Of a stretch of DNA of 30,000 nt, positions 1,491-10,398 are shown piece after piece. The stretch's first letter is position 1. Every line of letters begins with the position of its first letter. The notes under the pieces are model-generated. The model was not told the DNA's origin. It searched no databases and worked only from the letters and a program-made list of their open reading frames with translations. Source of the stretch: Pectobacterium sp. B1J-3 (GTDB taxonomy: Bacteria > Pseudomonadota > Gammaproteobacteria > Enterobacterales > Enterobacteriaceae); assembly GCF_046237015.1 (NCBI RefSeq), contig NZ_JBJYIN010000001.1, positions 289,094 to 319,093 on the forward strand. The letters run 5' to 3'. The position numbers and the translations under genes are program-made.

Positions 1491-3128
1491 CTACCCGGCA
1501 TGCGCAGAGCGATGAATAATGGGCAATGACGGGAGCGGTTGTCGCTCTTCAACACTCTGCTCCTGAACCGCAGCCTGATTAATTTTGAACACAGCAACTG
1601 CATCACGCAAAAATCCCGCCTGTTCTTCCAAAGCCGCTGATGCAGAAGCAGACTCTTCCACCAGCGCGGCGTTTTGCTGCGTGACACGATCCATTTCTGT
1701 CACGGCCTGTCCGACCTGATCAATCCCTCGACTTTGCTCATCAGAAGCAGACGCAATTTCGCCCATAATATCCGTCACCCGGCTCACCGCACCGACAATT
1801 TCTTTCATCGTATCGCCCGCTTCTTTCGCCTGTGAAGATCCCATACTCACACGGCTAGCGGAGTCATCAATCAATGATTTGATTTCTTTAGCTGCCTGGG
1901 CACTACGTTGAGCCAATGTACGCACTTCCCCTGCCACAACTGCAAAACCACGCCCTTGCTCTCCAGCACGAGCGGCTTCAACCGCGGCATTCAGAGCCAA
2001 AATGTTGGTTTGAAAAGCAATGCTATCGATCACACTGGTGATATGAGCAATTTTTTGGGAGCTGTCAGAAATATCACTCATGGTTCTGACAACATTATCG
2101 ACAACAACGCCGCCTTTTCCTGCCGTCTCCGAGGCACTTTTTGCCAGTTGAGCCGCTTGTCGGGCATTGTCAGTATTCAACCGCACCGTCGAAGTCAGTT
2201 GCTCCATACTCGCAGCCGTTTCCTGCAATGATGCAGCCTGCTGTTCAGTACGTGAGGATAAATCATTGCTACCCGCCGAAATCTCACTGGCTCCCGAATA
2301 GATAGCATGCGAACTGTCGCGAACCAGCCCCACCGTATTGATCAATGACTGTTGCATATGGCGTAACCCAGCCGCCAATTGACTCATTTCATTACGTCCA
2401 TCGGCATTAATATGCAGCGTTAAATCCCCCTCGGCGATAGCACTAATATGCCGCATTAATGCATGTAATGGTTGTAACAAAATACGCTGCAATCCGATCC
2501 AGCTTAGAATAATCGCCAACACAACCACCACCGTAGTGGCCCCCAATAGCCATAAAATAGTTGCAAATGCGCGATTATTTTCCTGTAATCCCTCATCGGA
2601 AAGTTGGTTTTGTGCCGCTCGCCACGCAATATAGGCATCCTGCATCGCAACATTAAATGGCGTAGCGCCATTATGTAATTTCATTGCCGACCCCGCCAAT
2701 CCACTGGAAAGGGCATCAATAATATCATTCAGCAGTTTGTGATAAGCGGTGTAGCTATCCTCAAGCTTTTTAGAGAGGCTTTCATCCATTCCTGGCGGAT
2801 TAGGAATGGATAGATATTGTTTATAACTATTTTCTGATGCGCTCAATTGTGATTGTGCTTGCTGCAACAGCGCTTGCATTGCCTCCTTATCCGCATTTCC
2901 CATCATCATGTTTTGCACGATAGAACCAATGGCGATACGCGTCTGATTCATCATGATCCATGCATCAGTAAATGCAGCGACATTCTGGTTAGAGCGTTGT
3001 GAAACAAGAAACCCTTCTTTATCGTTAATCAGCGCCCGGACCGATAGTGCACCCGTAAAAAACTGGGATATCCCTAATATAAACAGAACAATAATAAGGA
3101 TGGTAATCACTTTAATACGTTTAAACAT
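1491..3128 (-). CDS. methyl-accepting chemotaxis protein (N-terminal TM, periplasmic 4-helix-type sensor, second TM, HAMP, signalling domain)
   Basis: The ORF track gives 1491..3215. I trim to the ATG at 3128 (MFKRIKVITILIIVLFILG..), which has an AGAGGG SD sequence upstream. Highly conserved MCP hairpin region: IAFQTNILALNAAVEAARAGEQGRGFAVVAGEVRTLAQRS. Second TM is ILWLLGATTVVVVLAIILSWIGL, followed by a HAMP-like segment. No C-terminal NWETF pentapeptide. Confidence 0.9.
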   Translation of the reverse strand: MFKRIKVITILIIVLFILGISQFFTGALSVRALINDKEGFLVSQRSNQNVAAFTDAWIMMNQTRIAIGSIVQNMMMGNADKEAMQALLQQAQSQLSASENSYKQYLSIPNPPGMDESLSKKLEDSYTAYHKLLNDIIDALSSGLAGSAMKLHNGATPFNVAMQDAYIAWRAAQNQLSDEGLQENNRAFATILWLLGATTVVVVLAIILSWIGLQRILLQPLHALMRHISAIAEGDLTLHINADGRNEMSQLAAGLRHMQQSLINTVGLVRDSSHAIYSGASEISAGSNDLSSRTEQQAASLQETAASMEQLTSTVRLNTDNARQAAQLAKSASETAGKGGVVVDNVVRTMSDISDSSQKIAHITSVIDSIAFQTNILALNAAVEAARAGEQGRGFAVVAGEVRTLAQRSAQAAKEIKSLIDDSASRVSMGSSQAKEAGDTMKEIVGAVSRVTDIMGEIASASDEQSRGIDQVGQAVTEMDRVTQQNAALVEESASASAALEEQAGFLRDAVAVFKINQAAVQEQSVEERQPLPSLPIIHRSAHAG

Positions 3129-3156
3129 GTCACACCCTCTTTTTCCATAAGGACAA

Positions 3157-3318
3157 TATAAACCCTGAATAATTCGAGTTGCATGCAAGCGGAGACACAG
3201 CACATCCCCAAGCACTTATACCTGTCAATAATCAGGTAAGCGGCTCTTTGAGGGACGGTCATAAGCTGGCCTAATAACAAAACCAACGCACAGGCAACTT
3301 GAAGTATGACGGGGATAT
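3157..3318. repeat. ERIC/IRU-derived element, degenerate centre (copy A)
   Basis: Termini match the ERIC consensus ends: TATAAACCCTGAATAATTCGAGTTGCATG... and ...CAACTTGAAGTATGACGGGGATA. Lies 29 bp upstream of the MCP start codon. Confidence 0.7.
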
Positions 3319-3380
3319 TTATATCGAAAAAAAGAAGATAAATATTTATCCTCCGACACAAATCAAAGAATTACCGTATA

Positions 3381-3582
3381 TATATCCTAAATAATTCAAG
3401 TTGCATGAAGGCGGAAAGTGAGGGAATCCCGATGAGCTTACTTGAGTAAGTGATTCAGGTGACAAATCTGCCGGGAGCAGATTTGAACGCTGCTTGCCGC
3501 GGCCCCAACAGGGCGAGGCTCATGGATGAGCCGAATAACTAACGTAGCCAACGCACAAGCAGCTTGAAGTATGACGGATATA
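3381..3582. repeat. ERIC element carrying a ~75-80-bp internal insertion (copy B)
   Basis: TATATCCTAAATAATTCAAGTTGCATGAAGGCGGAAAGTGAGGGAATCCCGATGAGCTTACTTGAGTAAGTGATTCAGGTGA ... AGCTTGAAGTATGACGGATATA. The core matches the ERIC1R/ERIC2 primer region. An extra block containing the hairpin AAATCTGCcgggaGCAGATTT interrupts it. Confidence 0.85.
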
Positions 3583-3600
3583 TCACAACTAACACACATA

Positions 3601-3623
3601 CAACTTAAAATATGACAGGTATA
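3601..3623. repeat. isolated duplicated ERIC terminus
   Basis: CAACTTAAAATATGACAGGTATA plus the preceding ACACACATA parallels ACGCACAAGCAGCTTGAAGTATGACGGATATA at the end of copy B, 20 bp upstream. Confidence 0.5.
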
Positions 3624-3725
3624 AAAATGGGATTAAGCATGGATTAAATAGCATGAAATATGGATGAAATAAGTAAAAAAATACCGTTATAGTTAATCTT
3701 TGAAAAATAGCGGCAGATAACAATC

Positions 3726-3845
3726 TATGTACCCTGAATAATTCAAGTTTCAGGACAAAAACAGCGAAGCATGTTTGAACTGCGCTTGCGATGCCCCGAA
3801 GGCGTGAAGCTATCTGGCTAAATAACGCGACAAGCGAAAGACAAA
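3726..3845. repeat. truncated, degenerate ERIC (copy C): one terminus plus an insertion-like block
   Basis: TATGTACCCTGAATAATTCAAGTTTCAGG is followed by GTTTGAACTGCGCTTGCGATGCCCCGAAGGCG..AATAACGCGACAAGCGAAAG, which is alignable by eye to the insertion block of copy B. The far terminus is missing and the right boundary is approximate. Confidence 0.5.
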
Positions 3846-3876
3846 TTGTCCGGAAAAAATTTAACGGAACGTCTCC

Positions 3877-3901
3877 GGAGAGAGACAAGATGCCTCTCTC
3901 C
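3877..3901 (-). terminator. possible ypfH terminator hairpin
   Basis: GGAGAGAG-acaagatgc-CTCTCTCC (8-bp stem) lies 15 nt downstream of the ypfH-like stop codon. There is no adjacent U-tract on the minus strand. Confidence 0.35.
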
Positions 3902-3915
3902 TCATCCAGATAAGC

Positions 3916-4533
3916 TTACTTCAGGTGTGCCAATGCATGATTCAGCATTCGCTGGTCGATACCATGTCCAACACCAGGAATGATATCTAATGTAAATTGC
4001 GTCCCTAGCATTTCAAAACGTTGTGCAGCAACACGCGCGTGTTCAGGAACAATCACCACATCAGACTCACCATGGATCAAATGAACGACCGTATCGCTGA
4101 ATATCTGATCGGGTAATACCGCAAAGCGCCCGCTAAAGGCGACAATATGCCCAGCGAGTCGAGACGTCGACTTTAGCGCTTCCAGCGACATAATACTGCC
4201 CTGAGAAAAACCAATGAGCGTGGTTTGAGCAAAATCTACTCCACTTTTTTGTTGCCAAAACCTTACCGTCTCAACAAAACGAGGGATAATCGCCTCAACT
4301 CGTGCAAGTCGATTTTCTTCTGTCACATGTTGTACCGAAAACCACTGGCGCCCTTCGCCAAATCCCGTACTGAATGGCCCGCTAATACTCACAACCAGCG
4401 CATCAGGAAAAGCCGTCGCAAAGTAATGACCAATGGGTGCCATCCCGACAGCCGTATCCCCTACGCCATGAAACAGTAAAAACAACCGCTGTGGCGCTAT
4501 AGGTTCTTGTACAACAACATATTCCTGACTCAT
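3916..4533 (-). CDS. ypfH: phospholipase/carboxylesterase-family alpha/beta hydrolase (YpfH-like esterase)
   Basis: 205 aa. LFLLFHGVGD oxyanion region, GFSQGS nucleophile elbow (GxSxG), HGESD and GHGI triad-type motifs. Overall resemblance to remembered E. coli YpfH (..LLLFHGVGD..GRQWFSVQ..LIGFSQGA..), but shorter at the C-terminus. Confidence 0.8.
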   Translation of the reverse strand: MSQEYVVVQEPIAPQRLFLLFHGVGDTAVGMAPIGHYFATAFPDALVVSISGPFSTGFGEGRQWFSVQHVTEENRLARVEAIIPRFVETVRFWQQKSGVDFAQTTLIGFSQGSIMSLEALKSTSRLAGHIVAFSGRFAVLPDQIFSDTVVHLIHGESDVVIVPEHARVAAQRFEMLGTQFTLDIIPGVGHGIDQRMLNHALAHLK

Positions 4534-4836
4534 TCTCTTTTCCCCAGCAAAAACTGCTCGATCAATGATAGTTGAGATTAACTATACGCGTCCCTTTACA
4601 AGGTGAAATCGGGATTTATTGAATGAGATGTTCCATTTTTTGCAATGGCGGGGGGCAGATAAACTACAGGCGGAGGCGTCATCTTGTCCTTCTGTTATCT
4701 AGCAGTCCCAAGCATCCAGCTCAAGATTCTGGCTTAAAAATACGCCATAAGACGGCTTTTTTGTGTCTGAGCAGGAAATGATGCACAGCGATAAAGGGCC
4801 TCAAGCAGACCCTTTATATCTGTGAAAACATGTCAC

Positions 4837-5949
4837 TCAGAATGCAGTGTGCCTGACACGAAAAGAGCGGGTGATACGATCCCATATTGCGACCAGTTCA
4901 GCATCGCTGTAAGCCGGTGGGGGCAGAGCATAATTATTTAATGTCAGATCAAGATTAGGATGTCGAAAATCCGCAATTTTTTCATTAGCTACAGCGGTAA
5001 ATAGTAACTGTGCTGATGCGTTGTTGGGCGATTTTTCTGACGGGGCAGTGTTAAGCCATTCGCTGGCATCAAAACCAGCTATCTGTGTTTTGCCTTTGCG
5101 TAATGTCCGCGCATTGATACCCGTCAGATAAGACTGAATCTCATGGCTCCGCTCCAGCATACTTGTACTTTCTTTTAAGGAATTATTACTCCAGATCACA
5201 AAAGAAAAGACCGGATCATGCCGATAGACAAAGGTAATATCCTCTTTCGGCTTCCCACTCCCGTCGCGGATAAACCCTTCTGAAATACAGGTTCCCGGCT
5301 GTGTCGGGATCTCATCATCTTTTCGCCCCCTCAGACGGGACATGACATCCTGTAACTCCGCCAGCTTCTGAGGCTTGTCATTCGCCATCCATTCAGGTCT
5401 TCCTGCCTCTTTACGTAACCAAAACGCACGTTCTTTGGCAAAGTTTGGATCTGAGTAATCAGTAATCTCCTGGGAGAGAATAAACGCTACCCCGTCTACG
5501 TACAGATGTCCTTCCAGAACGCGCCCAAAACCAGGCACACTCCCATTTTTATTGCGGTCAAATATCACCGCATTTTCACTGACCCGGTACACCTGTTTGA
5601 GAAAAGGCTGATCCACTTTTCTCACTGTGTGTTCATTCTGTAATTCCTGCTCACGCAGTTGGATACGCTGCTCAAACGCCGGACGATAAAGCCGCTTGCT
5701 GCTGATATTGATTTCATTAATCTGAGCACGATCCGTCAGCGTATTTTCAAAAGAGGCCGGAACCTCAAATACATAGCGCCCCACGCACTGGGCTTTAGTG
5801 GTGGCAAATAGGGTATCGACCATACGTTTTTCCTTGTCCGTTAACGCCGATGGCGTATGCACAAACGTCACATAGTTATGAATATAAAATCCTGCCGCCA
5901 GTAGCACCATCGCCAGCGGAATAAGCCAGGGAAGAAGGACTTTTTTCAT
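4837..5949 (-). CDS. membrane-anchored periplasmic protein, candidate lipase-immunity protein (Tli-like), orphan paralogue
   Basis: 370 aa. The N-terminal MKKVLLPWLIPLAMVLLAAGFYI is a signal-anchor/TM with no lipobox Cys. Its ATG overlaps the stop of the upstream lipase remnant by 4 nt (ATGA). It is identical to the 6453..7559 product except for a ~64-aa central block. The immunity role is inferred from context only. Confidence 0.55.
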   Translation of the reverse strand: MKKVLLPWLIPLAMVLLAAGFYIHNYVTFVHTPSALTDKEKRMVDTLFATTKAQCVGRYVFEVPASFENTLTDRAQINEINISSKRLYRPAFEQRIQLREQELQNEHTVRKVDQPFLKQVYRVSENAVIFDRNKNGSVPGFGRVLEGHLYVDGVAFILSQEITDYSDPNFAKERAFWLRKEAGRPEWMANDKPQKLAELQDVMSRLRGRKDDEIPTQPGTCISEGFIRDGSGKPKEDITFVYRHDPVFSFVIWSNNSLKESTSMLERSHEIQSYLTGINARTLRKGKTQIAGFDASEWLNTAPSEKSPNNASAQLLFTAVANEKIADFRHPNLDLTLNNYALPPPAYSDAELVAIWDRITRSFRVRHTAF

Positions 5950-6194
5950 GGCGTCGGCACCTGTTGCACGATTTTTACTACCGAGCGCACCGTGAACACC
6001 ATCGCGTCCGACAGGTCACTGTAAACCGAACGAGAACGGTCTACGGGGTCCACGGCATAGGCTCTCAGCAGCGCCGCCGAATCAACATTGGACTGTGACC
6101 AGTTATAACCAGCAAGGGGAATGATGTCGTTGTGGAAGCGTCCATCCTCATCCCAGAGGGGACGATGGTAAGAACAGTTTTTGTTGTCGTCCAT
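5946..6194 (-). pseudogene. internally deleted remnant of the lipase gene (82 codons, in frame, no catalytic residues)
   Basis: The product MDDNKNCSYHRPLWDEDGRFHNDIIPLA + GYNWSQSNVDSAALLRAY + AVDPVDRSRSVYSDLSDAMVFTVRSVVKIVQQVPTP corresponds to three segments of the 509-aa protein: residues ~1-27, ~192-209 and the last ~37 aa. The HSMGG, GDGTVP and DHEGAY motifs are all missing. Confidence 0.8.
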
Positions 6195-6452
6195 GCGTTA
6201 ACCCACTGTTATTTTTAGCTATAAATGACACAGGATCCATCACCCGTCGTCTGCAAGAAATTTATATTAATATGGACAAAATAGACGGAGTCACTATCTT
6301 GTCCCTCTGTCACCTACCAGCGCCAAGCGTTCCAGCTCAAGGCTCAGGCTTAAAAATACGCCACAAGACGGCTTTTTTGTGTCTGAGCAGGAAATGATGC
6401 ACAGCGACAAAGGGCCTCAAGCAGACCCTTTGTATCTGTGAAAACATGTCAC

Positions 6453-7559
6453 TCAGAATGCAGTGTGCCTGACACGAAAAGAGCGGGTGATACGATCCCA
6501 TATTGCGACCAGTTCAGCATCGCTGTAAGCCGGTGGGGGCAGAGCATAATTATTTAATGTCAGATCAAGATTAGGATGTCGAAAATCCGCAATTTTTTCA
6601 TTAGCTACAGCGGTAAATAGTAACTGTGCTGATGCGTTGTTGGGCGATTTTTCTGACGGGGCAGTGTTAAGCCATTCGCTGGCATCAAAACCAGCTATCT
6701 GTGTTTTGCCTTTGCGTAATGTCCGCGCATTGATACCCGTCAGATAAGACTGAATCTCATGGCTCCGCTCCAGCATACTTGTACTTTCTTTTAAGGAATT
6801 ATTACTCCAGATCACAAAAGAAAAGACCGGATCATGCCGATAGACAAAGGTAATATCCTCTTTCGGCTTCCCACTCCCGTCGCGGATAAACCCTTCTGAA
6901 ATACAGGTTCCCGGCTGTGTCGGGATCTCATCATCTTTTCGCCCCCTCAGACGGGACATGACATCCTGTAACTCCGCCAGCTTCTGAGGCTTGGTGTTAA
7001 GAGACCCAACTCTAACGCCGGCTTTGATAAAACTTTCTTTATCTTTTTGATACTTAGGATCAGATAAATCGATAATATCTTGGCTGAGGATAAACGCTAC
7101 TCCGTCAACGTATAGGTGCCCTTCCAAAGTGCGGCCATATCCGCCCTCACTCCCATTTCTATTACGGTCAAATATCACTGCATTTTCACTGACCCGGTAC
7201 ACCTGTTTGAGAAAAGGCTGATCCACTTTTCTCACTGTGTGTTCATTCTGTAATTCCTGCTCACGCAGTTGGATACGCTGCTCAAACGCCGGACGATAAA
7301 GCCGCTTGCTGCTGATATTGATTTCATTAATCTGAGCACGATCCGTCAGCGTATTTTCAAAAGAGGCCGGAACCTCAAATACATAGCGCCCCACGCACTG
7401 GGCTTTAGTGGTGGCAAATAGGGTATCGACCATACGTTTTTCCTTGTCCGTTAACGCCGATGGCGTATGCACAAACGTCACATAGTTATGAATATAAAAT
7501 CCTGCCGCCAGCAGCACCATCGCCAGCGGAATAAGCCAGGGAAGAAGGACTTTTTTCAT
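6453..7559 (-). CDS. membrane-anchored periplasmic protein, candidate cognate immunity protein (Tli-like) for the adjacent lipase
   Basis: 368 aa with the same N-terminal TM anchor as the paralogue. ATGA overlap with the stop of the 509-aa lipase gene implies translational coupling. Size and topology fit periplasmic Tli-type immunity proteins. Family unverified. Confidence 0.55.
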   Translation of the reverse strand: MKKVLLPWLIPLAMVLLAAGFYIHNYVTFVHTPSALTDKEKRMVDTLFATTKAQCVGRYVFEVPASFENTLTDRAQINEINISSKRLYRPAFEQRIQLREQELQNEHTVRKVDQPFLKQVYRVSENAVIFDRNRNGSEGGYGRTLEGHLYVDGVAFILSQDIIDLSDPKYQKDKESFIKAGVRVGSLNTKPQKLAELQDVMSRLRGRKDDEIPTQPGTCISEGFIRDGSGKPKEDITFVYRHDPVFSFVIWSNNSLKESTSMLERSHEIQSYLTGINARTLRKGKTQIAGFDASEWLNTAPSEKSPNNASAQLLFTAVANEKIADFRHPNLDLTLNNYALPPPAYSDAELVAIWDRITRSFRVRHTAF

Positions 7560-9085
7560 GGTGTCGGCACCTGTTGCACGATTTTCACCACCGAGCGCAC
7601 CGTGAACACCATCGCGTCCGACAGGTCACTGTAAACCGAACGGGAGCGGTCTACGGGGTCCACGGCATAGGCCCCTTCATGATCAACATCGGTCGCTAGT
7701 ACCCCACGAATTCGTGAAGAAGAGGTCCGGATGGCCGTCACTGGCACCGTGCCGTCGCCGGGACTCCCTGCGGAAATCAGCTCATGGGTTCTTAACGGAT
7801 TGAGCTCAATAGTCTTTCCGGCATCCTTCACGGCCAGTTGTGCCGCCTTCACACGCGAAGAGATGGTCTGCGCTTTCCATGTCAAAAATGCATCAGACGG
7901 ATTATCCGCACTCGCACCGTAAAACAGCCAGGTCTGCGGATGGTATTTTCCGTTTAATTCTTCAATGAACTCTTTAACTGGCTTCTTTATTCGGTAAACA
8001 AAAGCTTCCCACTCACTGTTCGTATCCCCCAGCAGCAAATCCTGTTCACACAACCGCCACCAAGCCGTTTTGTTCAGGTAAATCTCCTCATACGGATCGT
8101 TCTTCGGCAAGGACTGGCAAGAACTGCTCTCCTCGACCTTCAGCCAGCCCAGACCATAAGCCCTGCCCGGCAGAAGTTGTAACGGACCAGGGGACTGTGC
8201 CAGCACTGGCATCAGCTTTTCCGCATTATTCCCGATAATCATTCCGGTAACGCCCCGCTCACCGGTTTTCATCCGCCGGTACGCCGCTGGCGAGCCCAGA
8301 TCCGGCATTACGCCATGCACAACTCCCAGAATATTTTCCTGCCCGTTCATGTTCTCCGAGTAGTGACGGGCAACCAGTCCCCCCATCGAGTGGGTGATCA
8401 GGATGACTTTATTGACCGCCAGACGACCGTGATAATCTCTCAGCACCTTGCGGATATACGTTCCCAGCAGCGTCGCCGAGTCCACATTAGACTGCAGCCA
8501 GTTATAACCAAAAACGTGCAGCGGGTATAAAAAACGGTGGCCATGTGCCGTTTCTGTTTCCGTCAGTACCTGTTCCACCGGCTCGTCGCCTAGCCTGATG
8601 CCAGTAAAACGCTGTCTCGCTGTCTGCAGTTTTTCCTCTCTGAAGTAGTTATCTATCAGGATATCATCGTCGTTGAGCAGGTACTGCAACCGGTCAAGCG
8701 CCTCCCCGTAGCTCTTGTAAAATGCGCATCCCCATCCCCGCTCTCGCCGCGAGGGGAATTTTTTTCCGTCCGCACCCTCGTTAAAAATAGCCCCTCGGTC
8801 ATCAACCATCGTGGTCTTCGGATCAAGCAGAAGCTTCCTTTTCTCTGGGCTGGCAAGCGGCCATTTTTTTAGCGACGAAACGCTGAATTGCCAGACCTCA
8901 TCGTCCTTATTTTTCAGGTTTGATCCCATCACCCCGGGAATAAAAATCACCGGGATCACCTTTTCTGGCGGTTTGAGGCAGACCGCCACATAATTCTTTT
9001 CTTTTGCCTGAGGAATAATGTCGTAGTGGAATCGCCCATCTTCATCCCAGATGGGACGATGGTAAGAATAGTTTTCGTCGTCCAT
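7556..9085 (-). CDS. alpha/beta-hydrolase lipase/phospholipase, candidate T6SS Tle-type (PGAP1-like/Tle4-like) antibacterial effector
   Basis: 509 aa with no signal peptide. PVIFIPGVMGSNL (oxyanion-type loop), VILITHSMGGLVARHY (GxSxG nucleophile elbow), SPGDGTVP (Asp) and DVDHEGAY (His) form a Ser-Asp-His arrangement. The gene is coupled to a membrane-anchored partner gene. Lipase fold confidence is ~0.8; T6SS effector role ~0.5. Confidence 0.65.
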   Translation of the reverse strand: MDDENYSYHRPIWDEDGRFHYDIIPQAKEKNYVAVCLKPPEKVIPVIFIPGVMGSNLKNKDDEVWQFSVSSLKKWPLASPEKRKLLLDPKTTMVDDRGAIFNEGADGKKFPSRRERGWGCAFYKSYGEALDRLQYLLNDDDILIDNYFREEKLQTARQRFTGIRLGDEPVEQVLTETETAHGHRFLYPLHVFGYNWLQSNVDSATLLGTYIRKVLRDYHGRLAVNKVILITHSMGGLVARHYSENMNGQENILGVVHGVMPDLGSPAAYRRMKTGERGVTGMIIGNNAEKLMPVLAQSPGPLQLLPGRAYGLGWLKVEESSSCQSLPKNDPYEEIYLNKTAWWRLCEQDLLLGDTNSEWEAFVYRIKKPVKEFIEELNGKYHPQTWLFYGASADNPSDAFLTWKAQTISSRVKAAQLAVKDAGKTIELNPLRTHELISAGSPGDGTVPVTAIRTSSSRIRGVLATDVDHEGAYAVDPVDRSRSVYSDLSDAMVFTVRSVVKIVQQVPTP

Positions 9086-9119
9086 GCGTTAACCTACTGT
9101 TATTTTTAATGATAAAGAC

Positions 9120-9137
9120 ACAGGTTCCATTACCTGT
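9120..9137. promoter_or_regulatory. perfect inverted repeat ACAGGT-N6-ACCTGT in the lipase leader/promoter region
   Basis: Read directly, 35-52 nt upstream of the lipase ATG (9085). The equivalent site in unit 1 (6229-6246, ACAGGATCCATCACCCGT) has lost two arm positions. Confidence 0.3.
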
Positions 9138-9273
9138 CGTCTACGAGAGGTTTATATTAATATGACCAAGCAGCACGTTAAATAATGAACATACATGCGC
9201 TTAATTCATAATGTCCAAGCGAATGATATGCCAAAATCATGGGCATACAGAAAGAATATGCCCATAAACTCAC

Positions 9274-9400
<127 letters not shown>

Positions 9401-9404
9401 TGTT

Positions 9405-9809
9405 TCAGAATGTCGCCGCCAACGGAAGCAGTTGTTCCTGTGACAAAGGTGCAAGTGGCACGGTAAAAGGCGAACGCGGATCAACCCATACCACCTCGGC
9501 AATCTCTGCCGCCGGATTAACCGATGCAACGCCAACCACTCGATAAACCTCAGCGACAACCGTACATCCAGGTTCATTCACCGCATGGTTGGAAAACTGC
9601 CCCAGATAAGTCAAATCATCGGCGCTAACGGTGATCAATAATTCTTCTTGTAGTTCCCGAATCAATGCGGCTTCCGGCGTTTCGTTAGGTTCCATTTTGC
9701 CACCCGGCTGCATAAACGCAGTCGTGCCACGTTTGCGCACCAACAAGCACGCTCCTGTAGTATCAAGGATCACTGCTGCCGCGATACGGATTTCGGAAGA
9801 TATCGACAT
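9405..9809 (-). CDS. NUDIX hydrolase (MutT-like)
   Basis: 134 aa. Nudix box GGKMEPNETPEAALIRELQEELLI fits GX5EX7REUXEEXGU. The start codon lies 4 nt after the LOG gene stop, with a GAGG SD sequence embedded in the LOG 3' end. Confidence 0.85.
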   Translation of the reverse strand: MSISSEIRIAAAVILDTTGACLLVRKRGTTAFMQPGGKMEPNETPEAALIRELQEELLITVSADDLTYLGQFSNHAVNEPGCTVVAEVYRVVGVASVNPAAEIAEVVWVDPRSPFTVPLAPLSQEQLLPLAATF

Positions 9810-9813
9810 GTGC

Positions 9814-10398
9814 TTACCTCGCCACCGTCCGTGTACCCGACGTCCACTTATGAGGCGGCGGCGTATAACTTGCGAAACTACTGAGAATATCGTCGATATT
9901 ATCGCTAAACTGCAACATATCCGAATAAGGCTGCTTCATAAAACCTTGCGTCACCATCGTCTGTGACATTGCACGAAGCGGATCAAAATATCCATTGATA
10001 TTCAGGAAGGCACACGGTTTATCGTGGATGCCTAATTGTGCCCACGTCCATTGCTCAAAAATTTCTTCAAGCGTTCCCGGCCCACCCGGCATAGCAATAA
10101 ACCCAGAGGCAATCTCTGCCATTTTCGCTTTTCGCTCATGCATGTTCTCCACCACATGCAATGTCGTCAGCCCCGGATGGGAAATTTCCTGCTCCACCAA
10201 CAAACGGGGCATCACACCAATGACGTTTCCGCCATGCGCAAGCGCTTCATCCGCCACCGCCCCCATCAAGCCAACTCGTCCACCACCGTAAACGATGGCA
10301 ATGCCAGACTGTGCCAGCACACGCCCAGTCGCACGGGCTGCCTCAATATAGGCTGCATCGCTACCCGCGCTTGAACCACAAAATATTCCTACAATCAT
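9814..10398 (-). CDS. LOG-family (TIGR00730-type) nucleotide 5'-monophosphate phosphoribohydrolase
   Basis: 194 aa. Motifs VYGGGRVGLMGAVA and AMPGGPGTLEEIFE (PGGxGTxEE) are typical of the LOG / lysine-decarboxylase-like family. Confidence 0.85.
   Translation of the reverse strand: MIVGIFCGSSAGSDAAYIEAARATGRVLAQSGIAIVYGGGRVGLMGAVADEALAHGGNVIGVMPRLLVEQEISHPGLTTLHVVENMHERKAKMAEIASGFIAMPGGPGTLEEIFEQWTWAQLGIHDKPCAFLNINGYFDPLRAMSQTMVTQGFMKQPYSDMLQFSDNIDDILSSFASYTPPPHKWTSGTRTVAR

What the first reader, a model, noticed from the sequence alone, without database searches (positions are those of the whole stretch)
5378..7179. Sharp-edged hypervariable cassette inside otherwise identical immunity-like paralogues
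**Boundaries.** The two partner genes differ almost only in one block: 5378-5569 in the 370-aa copy versus 6994-7179 in the 368-aa copy, with a 6-nt length difference. The left edge is abrupt. Both copies read ...CAGCTTCTGAGGCTTG and then diverge completely.

**Protein level.**
- Copy 1: ..NKNGSVPGFGRVLEGHLYVDGVAFILSQEITDYSDPNFAKERAFWLRKEAGRPEWMANDKPQKL..
- Copy 2: ..NRNGSEGGYGRTLEGHLYVDGVAFILSQDIIDLSDPKYQKDKESFIKAGVRVGSLNTKPQKL..

The sub-segment conserved in protein (LEGHLYVDGVAFILSQ) still differs at many synonymous sites. The block is therefore anciently diverged rather than recently mutated.

**Inference.** This block is a swappable specificity determinant, probably the effector-contacting surface. 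The copy next to the lipase remnant would preserve immunity to a different (lost or foreign) lipase allele.
Basis: partly seen in the sequence, partly recalled or inferred. Interest (0 to 1): 0.7.

Follow-up and report, generated by a model that had tools for sequence, protein, structure and literature searches.

The report
Orphan lipase-immunity gene with swapped specificity patch
Two neighbouring antidote genes against a bacterial lipase toxin are identical except for one short block, and comparison with other genomes indicates that this block is the part that recognises which variant of the toxin is neutralised, so the second copy probably protects against a rival strain's lipase.

Summary
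The window (Pectobacterium sp. B1J-3) carries, on the minus strand, tle4 lipase, tli4 immunity (368 aa), a deleted tle4 remnant, and a second tli4 (370 aa). The two tli4 genes differ at 75 of 76 variable positions inside 5378-5569 / 6994-7179. There dS is about 1.3, against 0-0.012 in the flanks.

- Across 88 homologues the block is the most variable stretch. It falls into discrete allele classes (A, B, C) shared between genera.
- In 35 adjacent lipase-immunity pairs the class co-segregates (34 of 35) with one face of a single lipase helix (Tle4 aa 355-377). The DNA between the two sites does not co-vary.
- A second cassette in Tli4 domain II co-varies 27 of 27 with the lipase segment homologous to the P. 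aeruginosa "L peptide". That contact is known from crystals, so it serves as a positive control.
- P. carotovorum holds the intact two-module array. Its modules differ almost only in the lipase helix and the Tli4 block.

The identical flanks reflect gene conversion. The copy beside the remnant is an orphan immunity gene of class A. This is a new variant of a known kind (orphan immunity arrays). No binding or protection was tested.

The parts
7556..9085 (-). Intact tle4-family lipase effector, 509 aa, with a TxSxG nucleophile elbow (S233), D444 and H469.
   Evidence: The Pfam PGAP1-like domain matches. phmmer against 4R1D chain A gives E 1.3e-43. The AF2 model has pLDDT 90, and Foldseek against 4r1d_A gives E 7e-30 and TM 0.70. 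It is 100% identical to P0121 of Pectobacterium sp. B1J-3.
7952..8026 (-). Lipase specificity helix cassette (Tle4 codons 354-378). The window allele is class B: EWEAFVYRIKKPVKEF.
   Evidence: This is the top mutual-information region against the Tli4 block class. It lies in predicted helix H355-377. Co-varying residues 356, 357, 360, 361, 363, 364, 367 and 368 sit on one face. Invariant W359, V370, F373 and L377, with the near-constant F/Y362 and I/M366, sit on the other face. It is the only clustered difference between the two P. carotovorum tle4 paralogues.
8819..8890 (-). Lipase segment homologous to the P. aeruginosa TplE 'L peptide' (codons 66-89). The key codons 78-81 (ASPE) lie at 8843-8854.
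   Evidence: The alignment to 4R1D_A places S79-P80-E81 on G98-P99-K100. This segment co-segregates with the Tli4 domain II cassette in 27 of 27 pairs.
6453..7559 (-). tli4 copy 2 (368 aa). It is the cognate immunity gene, and its start overlaps the lipase stop (ATGA).
   Evidence: Pfam Tli4_N (E 1.4e-43) and Tli4_C (E 1.5e-43) both match. It is identical to P0001.
6994..7179 (-). Divergent block in copy 2, class B allele (SEGGYGR ... DLSDPKYQKDKESFIK--AGVRVGSLNT).
5946..6279 (-). Remnant of a second tle4 module. It comprises the upstream region and start codon, an N-terminal piece, a mid piece and the C-terminal 38 codons, fused in frame as an 82-aa ORF (5946-6194). The ORF still overlaps the start of copy 1 by ATGA.
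   Evidence: The direct repeats to the intact gene and its upstream region are 82-87% identical (6224-6279, 6181-6225, 6118-6188, 6057-6111). The last ~114 nt are 96% identical. The catalytic core and the specificity helix are deleted.
4837..5949 (-). tli4 copy 1 (370 aa), an orphan immunity gene with an intact ORF.
   Evidence: Pfam Tli4_N (E 3.4e-42) and Tli4_C (E 1.5e-43) both match. The AF2 model has pLDDT 72, and its top structural hits are TplEi 5h7z/5h7y at E 5e-9.
5378..5569 (-). Divergent block in copy 1, class A allele. Patch 1 is a loop (codons 134-144, 5518-5550). Patch 2 is a helix plus loop (codons 160-191, 5377-5472). They flank a conserved beta-hairpin.
5161..5208 (-). Domain II cassette (codons 248-263, FSFVIWSNNSLKESTS, N-type). 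It is identical in copy 2 at 6777-6824.
   Evidence: It aligns to the TplEi R209-E219 pocket that binds L-peptide K100 (PMC5611513). It is dimorphic in the family and co-varies with Tle4 aa 78-81.
4817..5377 (-). 3' gene-conversion tract, 561 nt, 100% identical to 6433-6993.
5570..5901 (-). 5' gene-conversion tract, 332 nt, 100% identical to 7180-7511.

Best explanation
The locus is a small tle4-tli4 effector-immunity islet that once held two complete modules of different specificity.

Module 1 is intact. It encodes a Tle4-family phospholipase whose cap helix (aa 355-377) is of class B, followed by its cognate membrane-anchored Tli4 immunity protein (copy 2, class B block).

Module 2 has lost the core of its lipase through two internal deletions. 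It kept its immunity gene (copy 1, class A block), together with its own upstream region and the translationally coupled start. Copy 1 is therefore an orphan immunity gene. It most likely neutralises class-A Tle4 lipases injected by competitors.

The block (aa 133-191) forms a loop and a helix-loop on Tli4 domain I. These most likely touch the exposed face of the lipase cap helix. This would be one jaw of the 'crab-claw' grip by which Tli4 holds the cap closed. A second, independently assorting cassette in domain II grips the L-peptide segment of the cap.

The rest of the two tli4 genes is identical because gene conversion between the tandem paralogues homogenised them. The diverged block survives for two reasons. 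About 60% identity stops heteroduplex extension at its edges, and converting it would erase a specificity.

Shown here:
- the mosaic structure;
- the allele classes;
- the co-variation;
- the minimal-pair array in P. carotovorum;
- family membership.

Inferred:
- physical contact;
- protection against class-A lipases;
- expression of copy 1;
- delivery by a type VI secretion system.
For: Mosaic structure. 75 of 76 differing positions lie in the block (P = 1e-61). dS is 1.27 in the block and at most 0.012 in the flanks.

The second module was a diverged allele, not a fresh duplicate. The remnant pieces and upstream region are only 82-87% identical to module 1, rising to 96% and then 100% towards tli4.

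Concerted evolution. Flank identity is 0.999 within the window and 0.966 within P. carotovorum, against 0.85-0.87 between the two genomes. The class-B blocks are 0.84 identical between genomes, against 0.63-0.65 across classes. The same central trough is seen in tandem pairs of Mangrovibacter (L013), Erwinia (L002) and others.

Population data. The entropy maximum is at aa 161-192, with discrete classes A, B and C shared among Pectobacterium, Erwinia, Pantoea, Enterobacter, Yersinia, Serratia and Cedecea.

Co-variation.
- Tle4 aa 356-369 against Tli4 aa 160-187 tops an all-against-all mutual-information scan with APC correction. Permutation gave 0 of 300.
- Concordance is 34 of 35 adjacent pairs.
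- The dimorphic Tle4 block aa 404-435, which lies between the two sites on the DNA, is not associated. Linkage alone therefore does not explain the association.
- Patch 1 has its best partners in the same helix.
- The helix is predicted with high confidence, and the co-varying residues lie on one face.

Positive control. The domain II cassette co-varies with Tle4 aa 78-81 in 27 of 27 pairs. These positions align to the K100 - S215/T216/G217 contact of the P. aeruginosa TplE-TplEi crystal structures (PMC5611513).

Minimal pair. The two modules of P. carotovorum CP196742.1 differ at 138 of 2639 nt. These cluster in tle4 codons 354-378 and tli4 codons ~93-187. Class B pairs with B and class A pairs with A.

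Tandem copies usually carry different cassettes.

The published structure has the large cap subdomain contacting Tli4 domain I (PMC5611513, citing Lu et al. 2014).
Against: No physical or functional test was possible. I had no coordinates of 4R1D to check that the P. aeruginosa equivalent of helix 355-377 touches domain I.

One pair is discordant. L022 has a class-B-like helix centre with a class-A Tli4. The two sites therefore may not be the whole code, or cross-protection may exist.

The pairs are phylogenetically related, so the counts overstate the number of independent events. I count roughly four or five independent co-switches on near-identical backbones.

The class-A blocks of the window and of P. 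carotovorum are only 70% identical in DNA.

The Tli4 model is of moderate quality (pLDDT 72; TM to TplEi 0.28-0.35).

No type VI secretion genes lie in the window, so delivery is assumed from family membership.
Confidence: 0.8

Rival explanations
1. Recent tandem duplication followed by import of a foreign patch. Under this reading the two tli4 genes are young duplicates, and a ~190-nt class-A segment was later recombined into one of them from another strain. The flanks would then be identical by descent and not by gene conversion.
For: The flanks are essentially identical. Recombinant alleles that mix patch 1 and patch 2 types exist in the family, for example P0017, so short-patch exchange does occur.
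Against: The unit upstream of copy 1 carries lipase and promoter-region pieces that are only 82-87% identical to module 1. This is typical of a different allele and not of a fresh duplicate. Identity rises gradually (82-87%, then 96%, then 100%) towards tli4 and decays again downstream. That gradient is what conversion tracts centred on tli4 would produce. P. carotovorum shows two complete modules homogenised everywhere except the two cassettes. Under this rival, that would need two separate precise imports.
Confidence: 0.12
2. The block varies for a reason unrelated to the lipase. Possibilities include relaxed constraint on a surface loop, or selection by another partner such as a phage, a membrane component or a different toxin.
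For: The block is surface helix and loop in the model. One discordant pair exists (L022).
Against: The allele classes are discrete and conserved across genera, not a smear. The class tracks one helix face of the adjacent lipase in 34 of 35 pairs while the intervening polymorphism does not. dN/dS in the block is well below 1 (0.30).
Confidence: 0.04
3. Copy 1 is a non-functional leftover. It would be an immunity gene stranded by loss of its lipase and kept intact only because gene conversion from copy 2 keeps repairing it.
For: Its lipase is destroyed. Conversion demonstrably overwrites most of the gene. No expression data exist.
Against: The ORF is intact, including the unconverted block. The ATGA coupling and the upstream region homologous to the module 1 promoter region are retained. 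Orphan copies with a different cassette recur in several genera, which suggests they are retained by selection.
Confidence: 0.1
4. A dedicated diversification mechanism writes the block. Candidates are a diversity-generating retroelement, a shufflon or a site-specific cassette exchange.
For: One edge of the block is very sharp.
Against: No reverse transcriptase, recombinase or integrase lies in the 30-kb window. The substitutions show no adenine bias (24 transitions, 46 transversions, all types). No template repeat or inverted repeats bracket the block. The same alleles recur across genera, so they are inherited and not generated de novo.
Confidence: 0.01

Closest known systems
Tle4-Tli4 (TplE-TplEi) of Pseudomonas aeruginosa H2-T6SS (PDB 4R1D, 5H7Y/5H7Z)
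   Same: The domain families are the same on both proteins. The lipase has the same fold (TM 0.70). The gene order is the same, with overlapping genes. The immunity protein has two domains and grips the lipase cap ('crab claw'). The L-peptide / domain II pocket contact is conserved in position.
   Different: Sequence identity is only ~28% (lipase) and ~18-20% (immunity). The Enterobacterales genes sit in small islets without neighbouring vgrG or T6SS genes. Allele classes, tandem modules and orphan copies have not been described for the P. aeruginosa pair in the papers I could read.
Orphan immunity arrays made by effector displacement (Vibrio cholerae T6SS auxiliary clusters; Kirchberger et al. 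2017, PMC5361080). Also the orphan cdiA-CT/cdiI and rhs-CT/rhsI modules.
   Same: An immunity gene is retained downstream of the active pair, with a remnant of its former effector. Homologous intact pairs exist in other strains. The presumed role is defence against kin that still carry the old effector.
   Different: In those systems the orphan and resident immunity genes are usually unrelated or diverged over their whole length. Here they are paralogues homogenised by gene conversion, so they differ only in a ~190-nt specificity block. The displaced effector was destroyed by internal deletions, not by replacement of its 3' end.
Colicin E DNase - Im protein 'dual recognition' (recalled from established literature; Li et al. 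2004 is cited in PMC12483513)
   Same: Closely related immunity proteins discriminate between closely related toxins. They do so through a short variable helix beside a second binding element.
   Different: In the colicin system one element is conserved and supplies affinity. Here both interface elements (domain I block and domain II cassette) are polymorphic and assort independently. The folds and toxin chemistry are unrelated.
Proteus mirabilis conserved effector operon with subtle variable region (Alteri et al. 2017, PMC5714391; abstract only read)
   Same: A small variable part of otherwise conserved T6SS effector-operon products decides killing and immunity between strains.
   Different: The protein families are different. 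That work involves no tandem paralogues and no gene-conversion mosaic, as far as the abstract says.

Membership tests
Tli4 immunity family | Tli4_N and Tli4_C domains | tested here: met
   In both copies, Pfam PF18443 and PF18426 match with E about 1e-42 to 1e-43 over their full lengths, far above the cut-offs.
Tli4 immunity family | Fold similar to solved Tli4/TplEi | tested here: met
   Foldseek places 5h7z/5h7y (TplEi) as the top hits at E 5e-9 and probability 1.00. TM is only 0.28-0.35, probably because of domain orientation and low-confidence segments. phmmer against 4r1d_B gives E 9e-11 over the C-terminal domain.
Tli4 immunity family | Encoded immediately downstream of a Tle4 lipase | tested here: met
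   Copy 2 overlaps the lipase stop by 4 nt. Copy 1 overlaps the remnant ORF in the same way. The same arrangement holds in the related loci that carry a lipase.
Tli4 immunity family | Exported to or anchored in the periplasm | tested here: inconclusive
   There is a hydrophobic N-terminal helix at aa 5-29 in the model, and no lipobox cysteine in the sequence. No signal-peptide predictor was available.
Tli4 immunity family | Binds and neutralises its cognate lipase | not testable with these tools
   This needs binding or toxicity-rescue experiments.
Tle4 lipase effector family | Alpha/beta-hydrolase with a PGAP1-like domain, a TxSxG motif and a Ser-Asp-His triad | tested here: met
   PF07819 matches. 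THSMGG aligns with the same motif of 4R1D_A. S233, D444 and H469 are invariant in 82 homologues.
Tle4 lipase effector family | Fold of Tle4, with cap insertions over the active site | tested here: met
   The AF2 model has pLDDT 90 and pTM 0.91. 4r1d_A is the top hit at E 7e-30 and TM 0.70.
Tle4 lipase effector family | Secreted by a type VI secretion system | not testable with these tools
   No vgrG, hcp, PAAR or core T6SS genes lie in the 30-kb window. Secretion is assumed from homology.
Orphan immunity gene (effector-displacement array) | Immunity gene without an intact cognate effector, beside an effector remnant | tested here: met
   The 82-aa remnant ORF lacks the catalytic core.
Orphan immunity gene (effector-displacement array) | The same immunity type is paired with an intact effector in other strains | tested here: met
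   Class-A Tli4 sits next to class-A-helix Tle4 in 13 loci, including module 2 of P. carotovorum.
Orphan immunity gene (effector-displacement array) | Protects against the non-self effector | not testable with these tools
   This needs competition assays.
Diversity-generating retroelement target | Reverse transcriptase, a template repeat and adenine-specific substitutions | tested here: not met
   No reverse transcriptase lies in the window. No template copy was found. The substitution spectrum is unbiased.

The most novel reading that the evidence does not exclude
The Tle4-Tli4 interface of Enterobacterales may carry a two-site, combinatorial specificity code. Site 1 pairs the cap helix (aa 355-377) with the Tli4 domain I block. 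Site 2 pairs the L-peptide segment (aa 78-81) with the Tli4 domain II cassette. The alleles at the two sites assort independently and are exchanged as short cassettes. Gene conversion erases all other differences between tandem modules. If this holds, cross-immunity between strains could be read directly from two short sequence tags. New specificities would arise by reshuffling cassettes and not by point mutation.
Probability: 0.45. Interest if true: 0.7.

Novelty: new variant of a known kind. Interest (0 to 1): 0.55.

Why it matters
Effector-immunity specificity decides which bacterial strains can coexist. It is rarely possible to point to the residues responsible from sequence alone. Here nature has done the experiment. 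The window, and even more the P. carotovorum array, provide paralogous lipase-immunity modules that are identical except for a 25-codon helix and a ~60-codon block. That gives a ready-made minimal system for measuring how specificity is encoded. It can also show how an orphan immunity gene extends protection, and how gene conversion and selection jointly shape such loci. The recovery of a crystallographic contact by simple co-variation suggests the approach would work for other toxin-immunity families. The general phenomena involved are already known: orphan immunity genes, polymorphic toxins and concerted evolution.

Tried and rejected
- Co-folding. I built a 14-row paired alignment of lipase, linker and immunity fusions. 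No complex model was obtained.
- E. coli genomes. A megablast of 4500-9300 found nothing, so the locus is not from E. coli.
- Enterobacter cloacae Tle/Tli paper (10.1101/2023.03.28.534661). It looked relevant, but it concerns a different lipase family.
- Lu et al. 2014, the paper on the 4R1D complex, is not held. Interface details came second-hand from PMC5611513.
- The Pantoea T6SS papers contained nothing on Tle4/Tli4.
- Rfam found no family in 3000-9700.
- The promoter scan was no better than shuffled sequence (6 sites found, 5.6 expected). Only weak terminator-like hairpins follow each tli4 copy.
- A diversity-generating retroelement or site-specific mechanism was considered and rejected (see the rival explanations).
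- The profile search of PDB sequences with the family alignment did not extend the alignment into Tli4 domain I. The block could therefore not be mapped residue by residue onto TplEi.
Full report
**What is in the window.** On the minus strand between about 4.8 and 9.1 kb lie four genes.
- A 509-aa lipase (7556-9085).
- A 368-aa gene whose start overlaps the lipase stop (6453-7559, copy 2).
- An 82-aa ORF built from pieces of a second lipase (5946-6194).
- A 370-aa gene overlapping that ORF in the same way (4837-5949, copy 1).

Both long downstream genes match Pfam Tli4_N and Tli4_C at about 1e-42 to 1e-43. The lipase has a PGAP1-like alpha/beta-hydrolase domain. The lipase aligns to chain A of the P. 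aeruginosa Tle4-Tli4 crystal structure at E 1.3e-43. Its AlphaFold model (pLDDT 90) has 4r1d_A as top structural match, with TM 0.70. The immunity model (pLDDT 72) has TplEi (5h7z, 5h7y) as its top matches. The proteins are identical to entries from Pectobacterium sp. B1J-3. The rest of the window is ordinary metabolism and regulation. It contains no type VI secretion core genes, reverse transcriptase or recombinase.

**The observation.** It is confirmed exactly.
- In the alignment of the two units, the two tli4 coding sequences differ at 76 positions, and 75 of them lie in 5378-5569 versus 6994-7179. These comprise 70 substitutions and a 6-nt indel.
- The flanks are identical for 332 nt and 561 nt.
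- The clustering has P = 1e-61. dS is 1.27 inside the block and 0.012 / 0 outside. The sub-block that is conserved in protein (aa 127-160) has dS 0.92 and dN 0.13.
- The 3' edge in gene orientation is abrupt. The 5' edge is gradual.
- Substitutions are of all types with no adenine bias.

**Is the block special in the family?** Yes.
- In an alignment of 88 full-length homologues at 61-93% identity, column entropy peaks at aa 161-192. It is two- to three-fold above the background.
- The sequences fall into discrete classes. Class A reads DYSDP.FAKERAF.LR.E.GRP.WMAN and is two residues longer. Class B reads DLSDPKYQKDKE.FI.--AGV...SLNT. Class C reads SSEIRDVSDPKYKQDR..YLN--GGM.E.QLNT. There are a few rarer types.
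- Each class is found in several genera. Classes A and B both occur within Pectobacterium.
- A second, shorter variable patch (aa 134-144) assorts partly independently.
- In the model, patch 1 is the loop between two strands. Patch 2 is helix 168-177 plus the following loop. Both precede the interdomain helix.

**Does the block track the lipase?**
- I collected 30 adjacent lipase-immunity pairs from genome and metagenome contigs and five more by look-up.
- The Tli4 class co-segregates with a short stretch of the lipase, aa 356-369. Class A goes with EW.KYE..I...V. Class B goes with EW.AF[VA]..I..PV. Class C goes with EW...QDRI..DV. This holds in 34 of 35 pairs.
- Mutual information along the lipase is near zero everywhere except this stretch. 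Reciprocally, along Tli4 it is concentrated in aa 161-190 (permutation 0 of 300).
- In an all-against-all scan with average-product correction, the top pairs are almost all Tle4 356-369 against Tli4 160-187.
- The lipase has another strongly dimorphic block (aa 404-435). It lies between the two sites on the DNA and is not associated, so simple linkage does not explain the result.
- The stretch lies in a confidently predicted long helix (355-377). The co-varying residues 356, 357, 360, 361, 363, 364, 367 and 368 occupy one face. Invariant W359, V370, F373 and L377, with the near-constant F/Y362 and I/M366, occupy the other.
- Patch 1 of Tli4 has its best partners in the same helix.

**A positive control.**
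- Tli4 has a second dimorphic cassette, in domain II: aa 248-263, FSF.VWSNN.LKES versus FSLSVSTNTYLGDP.
- It co-segregates in 27 of 27 pairs with lipase residues 78-81, A[SG]PE versus ANAK.
- By the HMMER alignments, lipase S79-P80-E81 correspond to G98-P99-K100 of P. aeruginosa TplE, and Tli4 N255-N256-S257 correspond to TplEi S215-T216-G217.
- PMC5611513 reports from crystal structures that K100 of the 'L peptide' is anchored by exactly those three TplEi residues, and that K100E abolishes binding.
- Co-variation in this data set therefore recovers a true contact. That lends weight to reading the helix-block pair as the other contact. The same paper states that the large cap subdomain meets Tli4 domain I.

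**A natural minimal pair.**
- P. carotovorum CP196742.1 has the array in intact form: tle4, tli4 (368 aa), tle4, tli4 (370 aa).
- The two modules differ at 138 of 2639 aligned nucleotides. These cluster in tle4 codons 354-378 and tli4 codons ~93-187, with about a dozen scattered singles.
- Module 1 is B/B and module 2 is A/A.
- This is what the window's array would look like before its second lipase was deleted.

**Why the flanks are identical.**
- The remnant upstream of copy 1 retains the upstream region, the start and two internal pieces of a lipase gene. These are only 82-87% identical to module 1. Identity rises to 96% in the last 114 nt of the remnant, reaches 100% in tli4, and decays again downstream.
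- Flank identity is 0.999 within the window and 0.966 within P. carotovorum, but 0.85-0.87 between the two genomes. The class-B blocks are 0.84 identical between genomes.
- The same central trough appears in tandem pairs of Mangrovibacter, Erwinia and others.
- This is the signature of gene conversion between tandem paralogues. The diverged block is spared because it lacks homology, and presumably because converting it would erase a specificity.
- Tandem copies elsewhere differ in the domain I block, in the domain II cassette (Serratia L008), or in both.

**Caveats.**
- Contact, binding, protection, expression of copy 1 and secretion are all inferred.
- One pair (L022) combines a B-like helix centre with a class-A Tli4.
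- The pairs are related, so 34 of 35 is not 35 independent trials. I see roughly four or five independent co-switches on near-identical backbones: the 513-aa Enterobacter-type lipases with A, B and C; L005 against L025; and the P. carotovorum paralogues.

**Comparison with what is known.** Orphan immunity genes beside effector remnants, and recombination-driven turnover of effector-immunity modules, are established (PMC5361080; also PMC10539506 and PMC12483513 for orphan and non-cognate protection). I did not find the following described in the literature I could search: the intragenic, cassette-like architecture in the Tle4-Tli4 family; its pairing with one lipase helix face; the second independent cassette; and the conversion-homogenised minimal pairs. 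I therefore rate this a new variant of a known kind. It is of moderate interest, with good experimental tractability.

Noticed in passing
window 5161-5208 and 6777-6824 (Tli4 domain II); window 8843-8854 (Tle4 codons 78-81): A second specificity-like cassette exists. Tli4 aa 248-263 is dimorphic in the family (WSNN.LKES versus STNTYLGDP). It co-segregates in 27 of 27 pairs with Tle4 ASPE versus ANAK. These positions align to the crystallographic K100 - S215/T216/G217 contact of P. aeruginosa. The change looks like a charge swap (E81 with K259, versus K81 with D260). Both window copies carry the same type.
   Followed up: yes
L053 (P. carotovorum CP196742.1) 4475-9980: This locus holds the intact two-module array tle4-tli4-tle4-tli4. 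The modules are nearly identical except for tle4 codons 354-378 and tli4 codons ~93-187. A MbeD/MobD-like fragment lies just upstream.
   Followed up: yes
window 7781-7876 (Tle4 codons 404-435): The lipase has a third block with two sharply different alleles in the family (ERPALRPVPVMGYP..SSPTYRYDAGKTFE versus ERIPLRVKEAQRVR.DAG.P.ELSPLRTHE). It assorts independently of both Tli4 cassettes. Its partner or function is unknown.
   Followed up: partly
window 3380-3462 and 9319-9401; also 3148-3755 and 9274-9315: The islet, together with the neighbouring carboxylesterase gene, is bracketed by inverted copies of an 83-nt repeat that are 92% complementary. Three related copies are stacked at 3.1-3.8 kb. 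There is no Rfam match. This may be a repetitive intergenic element or the ends of a mobile unit.
   Followed up: partly
L022 (metagenome contig Ga0207655_1000303) 2475-5113: This is the one discordant pair. The lipase helix reads NTEDEWAAFVQRIKNPVQIF, a class-B centre in a class-A-like context, and sits next to a class-A Tli4. It may be a recent recombinant, a case of cross-protection, or evidence that the code is incomplete.
   Followed up: no
L049, L050, L052, L053 and the window: The tle4-tli4 islet sits in a different chromosomal neighbourhood in each genus, and never beside T6SS core genes. This suggests a mobile 'orphan effector' islet.
   Followed up: partly
L020 787-3933; L043 35-5590; L042: Longer arrays exist in metagenomes (tle-tli-tle..., tle-tli-tle-tli-tli), including more distant (~40-55% identity) family members.
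   Followed up: no
L006 and L012 (assembly labelled Chryseobacterium sp. 18061): Two Enterobacterales-type tle4-tli4 loci occur in an assembly labelled as a Bacteroidota species. The assembly is probably contaminated or mislabelled.
   Followed up: no
L009, L015, L016, L017 (Erwinia tasmaniensis PPS120): Four copies of the module sit in one genome, all with frameshifted or truncated lipase or immunity genes. This may be decay or assembly error.
   Followed up: no
window 4744-4756 and 6360-6372 (minus strand): The same terminator-like hairpin (GCCGTCTT[A/G]TGGC followed by a T-run) follows each tli4 copy. Copy 1 would therefore need its own promoter, presumably in the region 6195-6279 that is homologous to the region upstream of the intact lipase.
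   Followed up: partly
Family alignment A2, C-terminal region (copy 1 aa ~340-346): Some homologues (375 or 377 aa) carry a 7-residue insertion (LPTGSDSLST in place of LPPP) near the C-terminus. This accounts for the four length classes 368, 370, 375 and 377.
   Followed up: no
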